From a virus (taxonomy: Duplodnaviria; Heunggongvirae; Uroviricota; Caudoviricetes): a stretch of 8,484 nucleotides of DNA. A program made the position numbers. Positions 3,001-8,484 of the stretch are shown piece after piece; positions within the stretch are counted from its first letter, which is position 1, and each line of letters starts with the position of its first letter. The DNA lies in IMG/VR virus record IMGVR_UViG_2690316316_000010, positions 1 through 8,484 of that record, one strand, 5' to 3'.

Positions 3001-6000
3001 CGCCACCGCCCCCCATCATCAGGCCGCGCGCTTCCTCCAGAAAATTCAGGAACTGGCAAAACTCAATAACCGGATCCGTCTGTTGCTTTATTGCCAGAGC
3101 TTCATCACCGTCACGCTGCTCAATGAGTAAAGCCCGTGCCTTTTCAGGGTCGGTAAAGTTCGCCAGCAAGCGGCGGATAATGACGGGGATTTCAGCCGCA
3201 ATTTTTTCCGGTAGCTCCCTGTCTTTTTCGGCCTCACTAACAATATTGTCGAAACGGAAAATCACGCGACGACGTGCCACACCTCCGGCCCGTTCGGTGA
3301 ATATCATCGGGTTGTTGTTGGTCGCCAGCACCACCGCCCTGATTACCGCCGTGAAACGCTTTTCATATTTCGGGTTAATTTCCACGGGGTCGCCGCCCGT
3401 GATTTTCTTGATGCCCGTTCCTTCGCCTGTATATTTCGGCTGGTCAGCCAGGACAATAAGACGACTCCCGACAACCTGCGCACGTCCACCAGCATCATCA
3501 AGCGATGTCATTTCAGCGCTTACCGTGTTCTGTTTCCCTGCCAGAAGGCTGGCTATGTGTGTGAATGTACTTTTACCGCTCCCGCCGTCTCCGGTGGCCT
3601 CAATAAACATCTGCCAGTCGTACCGGTTCGCCATAATCATGTACAGCGCGGCACATATACGCATCATCTTGCGCGGGTCTTTTCCGGCTGCGTGCTCAAG
3701 CCATTTATGAAAGTTTGGCGCGTTATCGCGGATGTTCTCCCCTGGTGCTGGTGGCGTGTACTCAATGCCGTTGTTCGTGGTGATCCAGTTCTCCGGCGTG
3801 TGCGGGGAAAATTCCCCCGTTTTCAGGTCAAGCGCACCATTGGCGAACGGCAGCAAATCGCCGGACGGCTCGCCCATTGGTTCGGCAATAACTTTTAACG
3901 CTTCCACGGCGTTATTGATTACGCGCTTGCTGAAAGTGGCCCTGTGCTCTGAATAGATCGCCACCATTTCGCGGCTAAGTTCCATTGTGCTGACCGGACA
4001 CCATACCCCGCCGCGCCATACGTGAACGATTTCACTTTCCGGATGCACACAAACGCCATCAAATCGACCAGCAAGCATCTGTGCGCGCTCACTGTCTGCC
4101 ATTTGTGCCAGTTGCGTATTTTTCTGCTCCGGCATGGTAAGCCCTGCGGCAATATTTTCACGCTCAGCATTCAGATAGCGCCGCCAGTTTTCACACTTCT
4201 GGACGTGCATTCCTTCGGGGTAAAAATTTGCGTCCTGAATATCTGCCGCCGCCAGCTTCTGACCAATCTTTTTGGTCTCCACCAAATCCAGTTCTCCGGC
4301 CTGGTACAGCCTTACGCGCTTTTTCCCATCCGGAACAATTTTCAGTGCATCAAGTTCGGCAAGCTGATTTGGCCCAAGCCACACAGGCGGCACATTATCG
4401 CCGGATGCGGGGCCATCCTGCTCCTGCCATTGTTTCGCGTGCGACCAGGCATCACTACCCGCGAAAATAATTACCTCTGTGTCTTTGTGTTTTATTCCGC
4501 GTGGCTGTTTTTTTACGTTCGGTGCCAGTTTCATTTTTTACCCCTGAATACGTTAAGCATCTTTTTTATTTCCTGAATATTGGCGCGTGCTTTCTCCCTG
4601 CTGGTTGGTTTACTGCGGGGCGCTGCCTGTACCAGAGAAAAATCACGCCGAAACTGATAAACAGGCATCACGCAATCATATTCGTAGCCTTCACGACGGT
4701 AGGTGATGCGCCGTTCTGCCACGCCTTTAATCGTTACCATGCCGCCATATTTATCGCGGTAAATATCGCCGTTCATAAATTCAGGACGAGCGGGGCCGCT
4801 GGCAGTAACGCCAGAATTTTTATTTTTCATGTTTTTTATTCTCCGGTGTGCTGCGCTTTATTATTCTCGTGAATTGCCATCACTGTATTTAATTCATTAA
4901 TAACAGGCGTTAATAGCGTACGCACGGCAGAAAACATCATTGAATCAGATTCATCGCCACTTTCCGGCACATCAATTAACTTAAGTAGTAATGCGTCCAT
5001 TTCCTTTGCGCGGATTAATGCGTTTTCAGAATGAACAAGAACATCAAAGGGTATTTTATGCATGACTCCCCCCCTGGCGAATACGGGCGACAAAAATAAG
5101 ATGTGCGTGCGGCAACTGGGCGCGGGCTTCGCGCTCAGTGGCAGCGGTAACGGTGAATATTGCAATACTGTCTGTCAGGCACTGCATAAAGCGCCAGACA
5201 AAATAAGGGCGTGCGGATACAGCCATGTGAAAGGCTCCCAGATGAATTTTAAGGAGTCTCGCTACTACGCTGTCAAACATGGTGGCGAGACGTAACAGGG
5301 TTGACAGACTGGTCATCTGGAAACCAGCGAGCACAAAGGCTCCCCCGTTACGCCCCGCCATAATGCGGGTATGGGTAGGTTTACGGACACAAAAAAACCG
5401 CTTATCGGATGTGGGCGGCTGTCCGCCAGATGTATTCAGGCTGTCAAACCCGGTCGCCATGTGGGCGACGGGGGAAGCATACAGCCCCGTGATAATTTTT
5501 TGCAAGCGGTTTTTACGCATGATGTGACCCCTGACGAATACGGGCGGCGAATACAGCAACACAACCGGACGGGCAACGGCTACGCGCTTCGCGTTCCGTC
5601 CAGGCGGTTACGTGGATGATTTGAGATTCTCCGGCACTCAGTGCCAGAAAACGCCACACAAAGGCAGTTTGTGTGTGCGCCAGACGTGGGGTATGCTGTG
5701 TTCCAGCCATAATCGTTACTCCTGTTAACGGTTTGGTTAGACGCCCCGCTACTGCCGCAAACAGTTCGGGGCGTTGTCGTTTACATCCTCTTACTGAGGT
5801 GTGATTTAAATTAAATTCAACTGAATCACAGGTCAAGTGTTTTTTGTGATTCTTTTTTGTGTATACTGAATCACATCTTTTGTTTAGGAGAATGCACATG
5901 GCAAAAAACACTATCAACGACAAATCAAAACAGATTTCAATTCGTATCCCACATGATGCTTTTGATGGCATGGAATCCGTAAAACTGGACGGCGAAAGCA

Positions 6001-8484
6001 ACGCCGGATTCATAGTAACCGCCATGCGCGGGGAGATCGCCCGCCGCCAGGCAGAAGGAAGCAGTGAAAATCCTCTGATTTCTTCTCTCGATGCATTGGC
6101 GCAAGTGGAAAAAATTGGTATTAAAGCTACGGAAGAACTCGGGCAACTTATCGCCATCGCTCGTGAAGAACTACAGCGCCGCAAGGCCAAAGAATCAGAA
6201 TAATCACTATCAGCGCCGTGGTGTGAGGTATTACGGCGCATTGCTATGCAGGACAACACAATGACCGATAAAGAATTGACCAAAACATTATCACCAGCAC
6301 GGAAAAGACGGCGCAGAAAGATAGAGCATGAATCAGAAAGATTCGCGCCATGTGCTTTTGCCCTTGAGCAATTCCTTAAAGAGTACAGGGAAAAGCGCTC
6401 ATTGCAGGTATGGCAACGAACTGAACCAGACTGATTGCATTGCCCACCAGCCTGATAGCGGCTATCATCCCCGTGCTTATGTTTGGGATCACACACACAA
6501 ACGGCGCAGCGTGTTATCTGTTCAGAAAGGCGGCTCCATTTCGGGGCCGCTTTTTTTATGCCTGAAAAACCCCAATTTTGTGGTTTTCCAGTCTCACCAG
6601 GGCGAACGAATCCCCGCCCACGTTCTGGCGTATATTCAATCTTCATGGTTATAGCTCTGTGTTCAGATGATTGATGTGTGGCGGCTGTGTGCCGCCAGCG
6701 TGATTAATGAACTGCCTTGCAGCTATCCTTCCAGGCCAGAACCTCGGATAAAGACCAGCCAACGGAACGACCGCCAAGTTTACGACGTGATGGGAATTGT
6801 CCGGCCTTTTCCAGGCGGTAGCGGCATGAGCGGCTAAGGCCTGTTAGCTTTTCGCATTCTTTTTCACGTATAAACCGATCAGTGCTTAACACTATTGCCC
6901 CCTTTCGTTTCTTAAAGAGTTATTTCGTGTTCTATTGCGTTGGGATGTGTCTGATTGTGTCAGGATGATTCAGAGTTGGCAAATGTTGAGGTCGTATGGT
7001 TTACAGAAACAGGAATAATCAGGATAAAATCATTTAAATTCATGTTAATACAAAAGCATAAAATATTGTTTCATGCCTTTTTTCTCGCTATTTAAAGAGT
7101 GATTCGCTAGTGTATAAAAAACCAGTAACACATTAAAAATCAGCCACTTATAAATCCGTACACTTTTTCGTCTCTTGTTCGTAGTTGTTCCGCATTGTTG
7201 CTCATTGTTGCATGTTGTATCTGTTCGCATATCCAGTATGCGCATACTGAAAAAACACGAAAAAAATTATTTTCTTCTGGCTACTGGTAGCGTGGTTACG
7301 TTTTCATGTGTTCCCGCCAGTATCCCTAACCGCTCCATCCACATATCCAGCGCATTGCGTTTAGCATCCAGATAACGGGAATGATTATAAACTCGCTGCA
7401 TTCCTGGCATCTGATGACCTGTAAGCTGCTCCACGACATGCGGATCAACGCCTAAATCGTTCAGCATGGTTGTAAAGGTGCGCCGGATGTCATGCAGTGA
7501 CCAGTGAGGATGATTAAGCCTCCTGTGCGCTAATCTTCCATACTGCGATACGCTGGCCTCCTGTTTCACTTCCCCCAGCAATAAGCCCGTGTGCCTGTTC
7601 TGCTCCACCAGCTGCGTGACGAACGGCAGGATCGCTTCCGGTATGGGCCGGAATATTGCGACCTTCGTTTTGCTGTGCTCCTTCGGAACGGTCCATAGCA
7701 TTTCCGTAAAATCCCACTCCCCGATCTCCGATAGCCTCAGTTCTACCGTCCTGGCTCCGAAGACAATCAGGAGGCGGATTAACGCGACGTAGTAAGGGGA
7801 AAATATTTTTTTGTCCAGTGCCTGCAATAATTCGCCAAGTTCTTTGTTACTTAAGACACGTTCGCTTATATCCGGTTTTTTCCCAACGTCCGCCACGTTC
7901 AGATCGTCCAGAACGTTGCTGATTGCATAGCGCCGCCTACGGCAGAACTTAAGCGCCTGTTTGCACGCCTGTAGCACGAATCCGGCAGTAACAGGCGTTC
8001 GCTTTGCCACCTGGTCAAAACAGGCCAGCCAGTGCCGTAGCTCGCATTTATCCAGCGGCATAGCACCAATCTGCTGTATTACGTGATTATTAAGTCGCCT
8101 TTTCAGGGCGATATAATCCACGCGGTTTTCCTTTACGTAATACTCAAGCCAGTAGGTGAGCGCATCGCCAACCGTTACGGGCTTTAACGCTTCCTGTACG
8201 GTGTAATTCATCTCATGACGTGGATTTTTCCCCTCAGCCAGCCATGTGCGACACTGTGCGGCTTTTTCCCTGGCTGCTTTCAGGCTCAGATCAGGATAAC
8301 TTCCCAGCTTAATGCGTTCGGGTCGTGTCTCCCTTCCCGTTCCGGCCCTGTATGTGAAATACCAGGTCAATTTCCCTGATGTTAAATATTTCACGCTCAG
8401 GTTTCCGCCATCACTATAAAACGTGTTTTTCTCCGCTGGCTTACCATGAAGTTTCCTTAGCAAGGTATCGCTCAGTTTGTTCAT

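What the first reader, a model, noticed from the sequence alone, without database searches (positions are those of the whole stretch)
5898..6557. Self-contained plus-strand cassette embedded antisense to the island's main transcription
Every recognisable island gene is on the minus strand except this unit, which has its own promoter, a strong ribosome-binding site, a 101-aa RHH-like ORF, a possible second small basic ORF and a strong terminator. It sits between alpA and the replication operon, so transcripts from alpA and from this cassette would converge and collide. It could be the island repressor (a functional analogue of SaPI Stl), an antitoxin-like regulator with a small partner, or a source of an antisense or immunity RNA. 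None of these is described for this layout as far as I know.
Basis: partly seen in the sequence, partly recalled or inferred. Interest (0 to 1): 0.65.

Follow-up and report, generated by a model that had tools for sequence, protein, structure and literature searches.

The report
Hidden repressor gene inside phage-satellite island
A small gene cassette reading against the flow of an E. coli phage-satellite island most likely encodes the island's own DNA-binding repressor with matching operator sites, a kind of regulator long said to be missing from such islands in Gram-negative bacteria.

Summary
5898-6203(+) encodes a 101-aa YlcI/YnfO-family protein behind a strong ribosome-binding site. A 57-aa basic ORF (6261-6434) and an intrinsic terminator (6525-6557) follow. 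It is the only plus-strand unit in a capsid-forming PICI-type satellite.

In 148 related loci the protein's N-terminal Arc-like strand falls into 13 classes. Each class has its own repeated half-site at the same four positions. These bracket a conserved leftward promoter (toward Icd-like and the replication genes) and the cassette's own -10. Half-sites persist across genera while the spacers between them diverge. AlpA and Icd-like do not track the classes. The best reading is therefore an autoregulated, heteroimmune repressor of the island's internal early promoter, not of alpA.

- A P4/P1-type C4 immunity RNA lies on the minus strand (5278-5365).
- The whole cassette is nested antisense in a 377-codon minus ORF (5513-6646). 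That frame stays open far beyond chance in all relatives. It resembles P4 eta, whose translation carries alpA-promoter transcripts past immunity.

The toxin-antitoxin and immunity-RNA readings are not supported. DNA binding and transcription remain untested.

The parts
5800..5830 (.). Operator O1. Half-sites TGTGATT (5800-5806) and AATCACA (5824-5830) bracket the leftward promoter.
   Evidence: Four copies of the 7-mer occur at 5800, 5824, 5845 and 5869. With one mismatch allowed there are 7 matches in the window against 1.9 expected. The half-sites are class-specific in 13 protein classes and conserved across genera while the spacers diverge.
5808..5836 (-). Leftward promoter (P_left) toward Icd-like and the replication genes: -35 TTGACC (5836-5831), 17-nt spacer, -10 TAATTT (5813-5808).
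   Evidence: Read from the sequence. TTGACn-17-TAAnnT is conserved in all classes, for example TTGACG/TAACAT in E. coli and Xenorhabdus and TTGACA/TAAAGT in Nissle. It was not called by the consensus scanner. Activity is inferred.
5845..5875 (.). Operator O2. Half-sites TGTGATT (5845-5851) and AATCACA (5869-5875) bracket the cassette's own -10.
5862..5867 (+). -10 element TATACT of the cassette promoter. The -35 is poor.
   Evidence: Conserved as TAnnnT at the same position in 12 of the 13 classes (CATACT in the other). Inferred promoter; no transcript data.
5886..5891 (+). Shine-Dalgarno AGGAGA, 6 nt before the ATG.
5898..6203 (+). 101-aa YlcI/YnfO-family protein. The N-terminal part is an Arc-like ribbon-helix-helix: strand at about residues 10-18, helices 19-28 and 35-54. 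The C-terminal part is a long helix (64-100), probably for oligomerisation.
6213..6239 (+). Conserved intercistronic hairpin between the two ORFs.
   Evidence: 11-bp stem. Conserved in six aligned loci and present twice in L014. Function unknown.
6261..6434 (+). 57-aa basic ORF (ORF57), co-oriented, with AGGA at 6250-6253.
   Evidence: phrog_21027 at 1e-15. 36 clusters. Motif and in-frame indels. Codon periodicity is weak at 15/14/24.
6525..6557 (+). Intrinsic terminator of the cassette. It is effective only in the plus direction; on the minus strand the hairpin is followed by UUUCUG.
   Evidence: A different hairpin plus T run sits at the same place in L012/L175.
5513..6646 (-). 377-codon ORF antisense to the whole cassette and promoter region (eta-like). 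It starts 57 nt after the alpA stop with an AntA/Bro-type N-terminus. It ends in Icd-like domain 1 (nested short form 5513-5710 with its own AGGAG and ATG).
   Evidence: 0 of 20000 shuffles keep the frame open, with a mean of 10 stops. The same frame is open in 148 of 148 loci and fused to Icd-like in 94 of 124. Stop-trinucleotide counts in the non-coding 190 nt are 69/69/6 by frame. There is no codon periodicity in its unique parts. 1719 database clusters are named 'Icd-like' or 'ash family'.
6704..6892 (-). alpA (activator/excisionase), convergent with the cassette.
   Evidence: PF05930 at 5e-18.
5056..5520 (-). Direct counterpart of P4 eta. This 154-aa ORF has an ATG that overlaps the ORF377 stop (ATGCGTAA). 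It contains a PLE-like promoter (TTGCAA 5506-5501, TATGCT 5482-5477), the a1b1 targets (5433-5482), an isrK-like element and the C4 RNA (5278-5365). It ends in Icd-like domain 2.
   Evidence: Rfam C4 at 72.6 bits and c4-a1b1 at 46.8 bits. Sequence. Same order in P4. Icd-like NF033153 at 2.6e-14.

Best explanation
What it is: the 101-aa protein is an Arc-like ribbon-helix-helix DNA-binding protein. It is made in the integrated state from its own weak promoter, together with ORF57. The transcript stops at the terminator before alpA.

How it binds: dimers bind four half-sites (TGTGATT/AATCACA at 5800, 5824, 5845 and 5869, spaced about two helical turns apart). They are probably held together by the C-terminal helix.

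What it controls: binding shuts the leftward promoter that would express the Icd-like cell-division inhibitor and, further on, the replication genes. It also limits the protein's own synthesis. In effect it is a protein immunity factor standing where satellite P4 uses its CI/C4 RNA. This island has both in series.

How it is bypassed: when a helper phage turns on alpA, transcripts from the alpA promoter run through the cassette on the other strand. They are translated as one long ORF (5513-6646), coupled into the next ORF that spans C4. This would be the P4 eta mechanism, in which translation prevents premature termination. That bypasses the repressed promoter, and convergent transcription silences the repressor gene.

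Shown by computation: family membership, coding strand, class-specific conserved half-sites over conserved promoter elements, and selection for an open antisense frame.

Inferred: actual DNA binding, the direction of regulation, promoter activity, translation of the long ORF and the switch.
For: 1. Class-specific half-sites. There are 13 classes of the N-terminal strand. By alignment to Arc Q9/N11/R13, variable positions 12 and 14 and invariant R16 face the DNA. Each class has a different repeated 7-mer at the same four offsets. The cross-occurrence matrix is essentially diagonal.

2. Conservation within a class. Half-sites hold across E. coli, Xenorhabdus, Photorhabdus and Enterobacter while the spacers diverge.

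3. Other candidate binders are excluded. AlpA is 100% identical in loci of three different operator classes. Icd-like is 83% identical between two classes.

4. Position of the half-sites. They flank a conserved TTGACn-17-TAAnnT leftward promoter and the conserved rightward -10.

5. Module exchange. In O157:H7 islands the same slot holds a different 57-aa protein. It matches phrog_228 'Arc-like repressor' (1.5e-6) and weakly matches YlcI_YnfO_N. It has its own GGTAATTACC palindromes.

6. Mosaic breakpoints. Homology to the Nissle island starts at codon 15, so strand and operators are exchanged together.

7. C4 is usually absent. 19 representative loci with the module have no C4 RNA, so the module can stand alone where P4 has its RNA immunity.

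8. Cargo. Defence-like or membrane genes are co-transcribed downstream in some loci, such as Mrr_cat in L088. This is typical of genes expressed with a maintenance repressor.

9. Open antisense frame. The P4 eta precedent is summarised in PMC10111431. The P4 eta ORF spans a1b1/C4 and ends in an Icd-like domain.

10. Open question in the field. The literature states that a repressor in Gram-negative PICIs is 'unclear' (PMC6092414).
Against: - No experimental or transcript data exist for either strand.
- The RHH assignment rests on sub-threshold matches. Foldseek found nothing significant. hhalign against Arc gave E 0.0056 but probability 6.5%. Pfam hits are below cutoff.
- The consensus scanner called neither promoter.
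- There are no operator half-sites near alpA or int, so this is not a master repressor in the Stl sense.
- Covariation could partly reflect linkage within an exchanged module.
- The translation-coupling part fails in some relatives. In L025/L027/L088 a plus-strand cargo gene of about 0.9 kb lies between the RHH gene and alpA with no long minus ORF over it.
- The unique parts of the long ORF show no protein-like constraint: variable sites by codon position (minus pos2/pos1/pos3) 6/6/9, and dN/dS 0.35-0.62.
Confidence: 0.6

Rival explanations
1. Accessory (moron) operon with a private autoregulator. The RHH protein only controls its own small operon, whose payload is ORF57 or, in relatives, a nuclease-like or membrane protein. 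It has no role in the island's life cycle.
For: - The content downstream of the RHH gene varies, including an Mrr_cat protein with weak hits to candidate defence families.
- Half-sites are confined to the local intergenic region.
- One PICI survey lists YlcI/YnfO as an accessory gene (PMC13612085).
Against: - Two of the four half-sites bracket the conserved leftward -35/-10, not the cassette's own promoter.
- The module sits at a fixed place in the regulatory zone of islands that otherwise differ.
- Many loci carry no payload beyond the RHH gene (L003, L010, L093).
Confidence: 0.2
2. The main product is RNA. The roughly 690-nt plus transcript acts as a cis-antisense RNA (excludon) against alpA-promoter read-through transcripts, and the encoded proteins are secondary.
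For: - The transcript would be fully complementary to the minus-strand ORF377 message.
- It is convergent with alpA.
- The terminator works in one direction only.
Against: - The protein is conserved with a plus-strand codon pattern and dN/dS of 0.16.
- Operators covary with protein residues.
- There is no Rfam match on the plus strand and no significant structure.
- Antisense effects are compatible with, and included in, the main model.
Confidence: 0.1
3. Type II toxin-antitoxin-like pair: an RHH antitoxin followed by a small toxin (ORF57), stabilising the island.
For: - RHH-first gene order.
Against: - ORF57 matches no toxin family in Pfam, NCBIfam or PADLOC.
- It lies 57 nt away across a hairpin.
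- It is restricted to E. coli/Shigella.
- It is missing from many loci that carry the RHH gene.
Confidence: 0.05
4. The plus-strand ORFs are shadows of a real 377-aa minus-strand protein (annotated elsewhere as 'Icd-like' or 'ash family'), and there is no cassette.
For: - The minus frame is open far beyond chance.
- It is annotated as a protein in 1719 clusters.
- Third codon positions coincide, so long shadow ORFs are favoured.
Against: - Second-position conservation follows the plus frame: 3 variable sites at plus position 2 against 14 at minus position 2.
- dN/dS is lower in the plus frame.
- The plus ORF has a strong SD, a terminator and a confident fold prediction.
- Operators covary with the protein.
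- The minus translation is Cys/Ser/Arg-rich and has no Pfam match.
Confidence: 0.03

Closest known systems
Phage P22 immI region (Arc and Mnt ribbon-helix-helix repressors at divergent Pant/Pmnt promoters)
   Same: - Small RHH proteins bind repeated operator half-sites that overlap a pair of divergent promoters.
- One promoter drives the repressor gene and the other a harmful or antirepressor function.
- The strand motif xxNxRxPxE/D resembles Arc. A sister protein in the same slot matches 'Arc-like repressor' phrog_228.
   Different: - There are four half-sites about 21-24 bp apart rather than a compact 21-bp operator.
- An extra C-terminal helical domain is present.
- The gene is nested antisense in a long ORF.
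- The regulated gene is Icd-like plus a replication operon of a satellite.
- Sequence similarity to Arc is below significance.
Satellite P4 left operon: PLL - vis - eta/kil - PLE - seqA - CI RNA
   Same: - An alpA homologue is followed by a long ORF that contains an internal promoter and ends in an Icd-like (Kil) domain.
- A short form is nested in the long form.
- In P4, translation of the long ORF prevents immunity-dependent termination (as summarised in PMC10111431).
- The window also has the PLE-like promoter, the a1b1 targets and the C4 RNA in the same order.
   Different: - No gene is annotated or called (>=40 aa) antisense to eta upstream of the CI/C4 gene in the P4 record, and none is mentioned in the literature searched.
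- P4 immunity is purely RNA-based.
- Here an extra module (RHH gene, operators, second Icd-like domain) is inserted between alpA and the eta counterpart.
- In most relatives that module replaces the C4 module altogether.
Phage P1/P7 immI (c4 RNA - icd - ant)
   Same: - Icd-like domain and C4 RNA with a1b1 targets.
- Antirepressor-type (AntA/Bro) genes occur in the same zone in relatives.
- Control works through coupling of translation and transcription.
   Different: The cassette itself has no counterpart in immI. The regulator here is a protein on the opposite strand.
SaPI Stl / Gram-positive PICI Rpr master repressor
   Same: - A repressor gene transcribed against the replication operon of a phage-inducible island, from a divergent promoter pair.
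- It comes in many specificity types.
   Different: - Unrelated fold: HTH there, RHH here.
- No operator sites at the excision/activator gene.
- Induction in Gram-negative PICIs goes through helper-activated alpA (PMC6092414).
- No evidence that a helper protein binds this repressor.
E. coli K-12 YlcI (DLP12) and YnfO (Qin)
   Same: They share the N-terminal 42-aa domain that defines NF041551.
   Different: - From my own knowledge, not checked here, those are short prophage proteins in a different context, near the terminase genes.
- The searched literature gave no function for them.
- The 101-aa form has an added C-terminal domain. tblastn found it in no deposited phage genome.

Membership tests
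YlcI/YnfO family (NCBIfam NF041551) | Match to the 42-residue N-terminal domain model above the curated cutoff | tested here: met
   65.7 bits against a cutoff of 30, residues 9-50, E 2.8e-18. Also annotated as such by PGAP in the identical genome.
Ribbon-helix-helix (Arc/MetJ) DNA-binding superfamily | Strand-helix-helix secondary structure of about 45 residues | tested here: met
   The AF2 model has an extended N-terminus to residue 18 and helices at 19-28 and 35-54, with pLDDT 77-88 in that part. The strand can form only in a dimer, which could not be modelled.
Ribbon-helix-helix (Arc/MetJ) DNA-binding superfamily | Significant sequence or structure similarity to established members | tested here: inconclusive
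- Foldseek found nothing significant.
- hhalign against Arc: E 0.0056, probability 6.5%.
- PF07704 is below cutoff in 27 of 38 members.
- Bridging proteins in the same slot match both phrog_228 'Arc-like repressor' (1.5e-6) and YlcI_YnfO_N (about 1e-3).
Ribbon-helix-helix (Arc/MetJ) DNA-binding superfamily | Sequence-specific binding to repeated or inverted operator half-sites through strand residues | not testable with these tools
   Binding itself cannot be tested. The computational proxy is positive: class-specific half-sites covary with strand residues and are footprinted across genera.
Type II toxin-antitoxin module (RHH antitoxin + toxin) | An obligatory adjacent toxin gene of a recognisable family | tested here: not met
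   ORF57 has no hit in Pfam, NCBIfam or PADLOC. It is absent from many loci that carry the RHH gene.
P4/P1-type RNA immunity (CI / C4 antisense RNA) | The feature encodes a C4-family RNA with upstream a1b1 target sites | tested here: not met
   C4 and a1b1 are present in the window but on the minus strand at 5278-5482, outside the cassette. There is no Rfam match on the plus strand.
P4 eta-like translated leader ORF (applies to the minus-strand ORF that overlaps the cassette) | A long ORF starting at or just after the alpA-homologue stop, enclosing an internal promoter and ending in a Kil/Icd-like domain with a nested short form | tested here: met
   - ORF377 runs 6646-5513 and starts 57 nt after the alpA stop. 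It encloses P_left. The nested Icd-like form 5710-5513 has its own SD.
- P4 eta 8812-8168 has the same build.
- Whether ORF377 is translated, and whether translation prevents termination, was not testable.
SaPI Stl-type master repressor | Controls the promoters of the excision/activation genes so that the whole island is silent | tested here: not met
   No paired half-sites lie upstream of alpA or int. Sites cluster only at 5800-5875.
Capsid-forming PICI / Gram-negative PICI (the element that hosts the cassette) | int - alpA - primase in one direction, plus own terS, capsid, protease and portal genes | tested here: met
   Pfam AlpA and D5_N/primase matches. The annotated 99.9%-identical locus has major capsid, prohead protease, portal, head closure and connector genes. 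The layout is as described in 10.1101/2022.09.08.507074. Mobilisation was not tested.

The most novel reading that the evidence does not exclude
About 750 bp of this island would be read on both strands for different purposes.

On the plus strand it encodes the long-sought immunity repressor of Gram-negative PICIs, which comes in many heteroimmune specificity classes.

On the minus strand it is kept free of stop codons only so that ribosomes can follow RNA polymerase from the helper-induced alpA promoter across the repressor gene and its operators. The act of translation would matter, not the protein made.

Together these would form a bistable switch. Read-through transcription silences the repressor by collision and bypasses its operators. 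This would explain how Gram-negative PICIs stay quiescent and how alpA induction commits them.
Probability: 0.3. Interest if true: 0.8.

Novelty: new variant of a known kind. Interest (0 to 1): 0.62.

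Why it matters
Why it matters for PICI biology:
- The founding paper on Gram-negative phage-inducible islands states that a global repressor is 'unclear' and that their different induction logic is 'a mystery' (PMC6092414). Later surveys call the genes unidirectional and list YlcI/YnfO only as an accessory gene (PMC10111431, PMC13612085).
- A repressor gene with matching operators that has gone unremarked and is inconsistently annotated gives that question a concrete, testable candidate. 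In many genomes the annotated gene is the overlapping antisense ORF instead. In O157:H7 the sister RHH gene is not annotated at all.
- The candidate is present in studied backgrounds: the Nissle 1917 island, and an O157:H7 island next to roxA that was not confirmed here to be EcCIEDL933.

Wider value:
- The 13 or more recognition-strand/half-site pairs are a ready-made natural set for studying RHH specificity.
- They suggest heteroimmunity among co-resident satellites.
- The conserved open antisense frame is a clean case for testing whether translation, rather than its product, can be the selected function of an ORF.

Tried and rejected
- **Profile against PDB sequences.** Only a weak helix-hairpin-helix-like hit to Hef (E 0.011). 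The model shows one long helix instead, so I did not adopt an HhH reading.
- **tblastn of the 101-aa protein against deposited phage genomes.** No match.
- **Pfam.** No family above cutoff for the 101-aa protein, ORF57 or the 377-aa ORF.
- **PADLOC.** No defence family for the window's two proteins.
- **Structured RNA in the cassette 3' UTR.** Not supported (z -0.63). No Rfam family on the plus strand.
- **Extra operator sites near alpA or int.** None.
- **alpA stop-codon read-through.** In the window alpA and ORF377 share a frame, but only 10 of 99 loci do, so I rejected this idea.
- **Composition as the cause of the open minus frame.** Rejected. In the window's cassette region (5898-6203) the other two minus frames open for at most 77 and 36 codons. 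In the 190 nt upstream of the RHH gene, summed over the 13 operator classes, stop trinucleotides number 69/69/6 by frame.
- **EcCICFT073.** Two 49-kb stretches of the CFT073 genome were fetched without finding it. Whether that prototype has the cassette is therefore unknown.
- **Literature.** Searches for YlcI, YnfO, DUF3950 and the WP accessions gave no functional study.
- **Shuffle method.** A dinucleotide-preserving shuffle timed out and was replaced by a mononucleotide and synonymous-codon shuffle.

Full report
**Setting**

The window is part of a capsid-forming PICI-type phage satellite of E. coli. It is 99.9% identical to a locus beside tqsA in strain NMBU-W12E19.

On the minus strand, in order:
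- integrase, 7267-8484
- alpA, 6704-6892 (PF05930, 5e-18)
- two Icd-like domains, 5513-5710 and 5056-5265 (NF033153)
- a DUF4222 gene
- a D5-type primase, 2786-4534
- small terminase
- the start of a major capsid gene

The annotated twin locus continues with prohead protease, portal and connector genes.

- AGGAGA at 5886-5891 precedes the ATG at 5898. The 101-codon ORF ends at 6203.
- AGGA at 6250-6253 precedes a 57-codon basic ORF at 6261-6434.
- A 13-bp hairpin with a T7 run at 6525-6557 is a good intrinsic terminator in the plus direction only.
- The 101-aa product matches the curated YlcI/YnfO model far above its cutoff and phrog_6522 end to end.
- 207 homologue clusters exist across Enterobacterales.
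- Among relatives the variable sites fall 14/3/29 on plus-strand codon positions 1/2/3. alpA shows the mirror pattern for the minus strand.
- dN/dS is 0.16 in the plus frame.
- The promoter is the weakest part. The scanner called nothing, but a TATACT/TAnnnT -10 is conserved at the same spot in 12 of the 13 sequence classes (CATACT in the other).

**What the protein is**

- The AF2 model (pLDDT 80) has an extended N-terminus, helices at 19-28 and 35-54, and a long confident helix at 64-100.
- Two bridging observations help. In O157:H7 islands, and as an extra gene in strain P15-385, the same slot holds 57-59-aa proteins. These match phrog_228 'Arc-like repressor' (1.5e-6) and also weakly match YlcI_YnfO_N.
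- The motif KQISIRIPHD aligns with Arc's PQFNLRWPRE. That places positions 12, 14 and 16 where Arc's DNA-contacting Q9, N11 and R13 lie. The Arc residue roles are my own knowledge; the alignment is.

**The key evidence: operators that covary with the strand**

I collected 148 distinct loci from E. coli genomes, species-representative genomes, metagenomes and IMG/VR.

- The strand after the invariant N-x-K-S falls into 13 classes.
- Each class has its own 7-mer repeated three or four times, at the same offsets, in the 130 nt upstream. Examples: window AATCACA; QLTTVRVP GAAACAC; QSLTARIP CTTACA; QMTTIRVP ATCTCAC/GATATAC; QQLNARFP GAATACC.
- Cross-occurrence between classes is almost nil.
- Within a class the half-sites are unchanged from E. 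coli to Xenorhabdus, Photorhabdus or Enterobacter, while the spacers between them have diverged.
- AlpA is 100% identical in loci of three different classes. Icd-like is 83% identical between two classes. Neither can be the specificity determinant.
- In the window the sites are 5800-5806, 5824-5830, 5845-5851 and 5869-5875.
- The first pair brackets a leftward promoter conserved in every class: TTGACC 5836-5831, 17 nt, TAATTT 5813-5808. It reads TTGACG/TAACAT in both E. coli and Xenorhabdus.
- The second pair brackets the cassette's own -10.
- Homology to the Nissle 1917 island begins at codon 15, so strand and operators are exchanged as one unit.

This is the signature of a heteroimmune repressor-operator module.

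- Rfam finds a C4 antisense RNA (72.6 bits, 5278-5365), its a1b1 target element (5433-5482) and an isrK-like element. All are on the minus strand.
- They lie in the same order as in satellite P4.
- A PLE-like promoter, TTGCAA-18-TATGCT at 5506-5477, aligns with P4's PLE.
- They sit inside a 154-codon ORF (5056-5520) that ends in the second Icd-like domain. This is the direct counterpart of P4 eta.
- C4 and isrK hits in Gram-negative PICIs have been reported before (PMC10111431).
- None of 19 representative loci carrying the RHH module has C4. The RHH module therefore usually stands alone where P4 has RNA immunity. The window has both in series.

- The minus strand is free of stops from 6703 to 5516. 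ORF 5513-6646 has 377 codons and starts 57 nt after alpA's stop.
- Its N-terminus, MKIEYTPERGRGFVRP, is that of the AntA/Bro proteins found downstream of alpA in relatives. Its C-terminus is Icd-like domain 1.
- Shuffles that keep the plus-strand proteins and shuffle the non-coding parts never reproduce this: 0 of 20000, with a mean of 10 stops.
- The same frame, which shares third codon positions with the plus genes, is the longest open minus frame in 148 of 148 loci. The median is 374 codons. It is fused to Icd-like in 94 of 124 loci.
- In the non-coding 190 nt upstream of the RHH gene, minus-stop trinucleotides number 69/69/6 by frame over the 13 classes.
- The unique parts of this ORF show no codon periodicity (variable sites by codon position, minus pos2/pos1/pos3, 6/6/9) and weak constraint (dN/dS 0.35-0.62).
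- The translation is Cys/Ser/Arg-rich with no Pfam match.
- Databases nevertheless hold 1719 clusters of it, named 'Icd-like' or 'ash family'. PGAP now marks it as a pseudogene overlapping the YlcI gene.

The closest precedent is P4 eta. It is a long ORF coupled to the alpA homologue vis, and it encloses the constitutive promoter. Its translation from late-promoter transcripts prevents immunity-dependent termination (summarised in PMC10111431). Its C-terminus is Icd-like. By analogy, the frame is kept open so that it can be translated. This is inference.

It does not fit every relative. Where a plus-strand cargo gene of about 0.9 kb follows the RHH gene (L025, L027, L088), no long minus ORF covers that stretch, although the part over the RHH gene and promoter stays open.

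**Proposed working**

Quiescent state:
- The cassette is transcribed and stops before alpA.
- The RHH protein occupies the four half-sites. It shuts P_left (Icd-like, then the replication operon) and limits itself.
- C4 RNA adds a second block downstream.

Helper infection or induction:
- alpA is activated. This is a known step (PMC6092414; 10.1101/2022.09.08.507074).
- Transcripts read through the cassette on the minus strand and are translated as ORF377.
- Translation is coupled through the ATGCGTAA overlap (5520-5513) into the eta-like ORF over C4.
- This bypasses both blocks while interfering with repressor expression.

Half-sites are absent near alpA and int. This is therefore an immunity repressor of the internal early promoter, not a Stl-like master repressor.

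**Other readings**

- A private autoregulator of an accessory operon is the main rival. It is favoured by the variable cargo: an Mrr_cat nuclease-like gene in L088 and a membrane protein in L025. It does not explain operators over the conserved leftward promoter.
- A toxin-antitoxin pair is unlikely. ORF57 has no toxin signature and is often absent.
- A purely RNA function and a shadow-ORF artefact are contradicted by the coding-strand evidence.

**Novelty**

- The family name exists and the gene is widespread: parts of the 1-kb region match 1322 of 5426 complete E. coli genomes.
- I found no functional study.
- The PICI literature treats a repressor in Gram-negative islands as unknown (PMC6092414).
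- RHH repressor-operator switches and eta-type translated leaders are both known kinds. Their antisense nesting, and the use of an RHH module in place of C4 immunity, is a new variant.

Noticed in passing
window 5278-5482 (minus): A P4/P1-type RNA immunity module. It has a C4 antisense RNA (72.6 bits), a c4-a1b1 target element (46.8 bits), a sub-threshold isrK-like terminator element and a PLE-like promoter at 5477-5506. All lie inside a 154-codon ORF that ends in a second Icd-like domain.
   Followed up: partly
window 5513-6646 (minus); also L002 5560-6627, L175 2945-4237, L177 3006-3950: A minus-strand frame is kept free of stops across the cassette and the non-coding promoter region in every relative, yet shows no protein-like constraint. 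Annotators alternate between calling this ORF ('Icd-like', 'ash family') and calling the plus-strand YlcI gene.
   Followed up: yes
L177 3334-3507 (+), E. coli O157:H7 strain 2149: An unannotated 57-aa Arc-like repressor gene (phrog_228, 1.5e-6) occupies the same slot in an O157:H7 island beside roxA, followed by ORF57. Two GGTAATTACC palindromes lie just upstream (3294-3336).
   Followed up: partly
window 6213-6239 (+); L014, two copies: A conserved 11-bp-stem hairpin (GCGCCGUGGUG/UAUUACGGCGC) sits in the spacer before ORF57. The same element precedes two different downstream ORFs in strain P15-385, as if it marked gene junctions in this operon. On its own it is not significant (z -1.15).
   Followed up: partly
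window 5741-5774: A conserved G+C hairpin (ACGCCCCG...CGGGGCGT) lies in the leader of the leftward transcript, just upstream of the Icd-like SD. RNA fold z is -2.72, with 0 of 200 shuffles as stable. Its 3' arm is visible in most classes. On the plus strand it is followed by a T-rich stretch and might shield the operator region from incoming transcription.
   Followed up: no
L088 3133-4017 (+); L025 3639-4190 (+): In some relatives the RHH gene is followed on the same strand by cargo. One is a 294-aa Mrr_cat restriction-endonuclease-like protein with weak hits to candidate defence families (PDC-M58A, 1.8e-6). Another is a 183-aa predicted membrane protein. The slot may be a small cargo hotspot expressed in the quiescent state.
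   Followed up: partly
L014 1647-2772 (+), E. coli P15-385: This locus has a tandem arrangement with four plus-strand genes: a short 59-aa YlcI form, a 75-aa ORF57-related protein, a 59-aa Arc-like protein with its own repeat-rich upstream region, and a 67-aa ORF57-like protein. Two long minus frames (277 and 255 codons) cover most of the slot.
   Followed up: partly
L005 9308-9376, L008 9770-9838, L020 6025-6092, L070 5989-6057, L086 3273-3341 (minus): The Rfam int-alpA RNA motif (RF02996) is present between int and alpA in several relatives. It was not detected in the window even at E <= 1.
   Followed up: no
window 6329-6356 and aligned loci: Within ORF57 the stretch GAGCATGAATCAGAAAGATTCGCGCCATG is almost invariant at the DNA level, even in loci whose flanks have diverged. 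It is more conserved than the rest of the ORF. That could reflect a site on DNA or RNA rather than only the ERFAPC peptide.
   Followed up: no
window 5898-6203, residues 55-101: The C-terminal half of the 101-aa protein is much more conserved than the N-terminal recognition part. It gives a weak helix-hairpin-helix-like profile hit to Hef (E 0.011), although the model shows a single long helix. Short family members of 59-61 aa lack this half entirely.
   Followed up: partly
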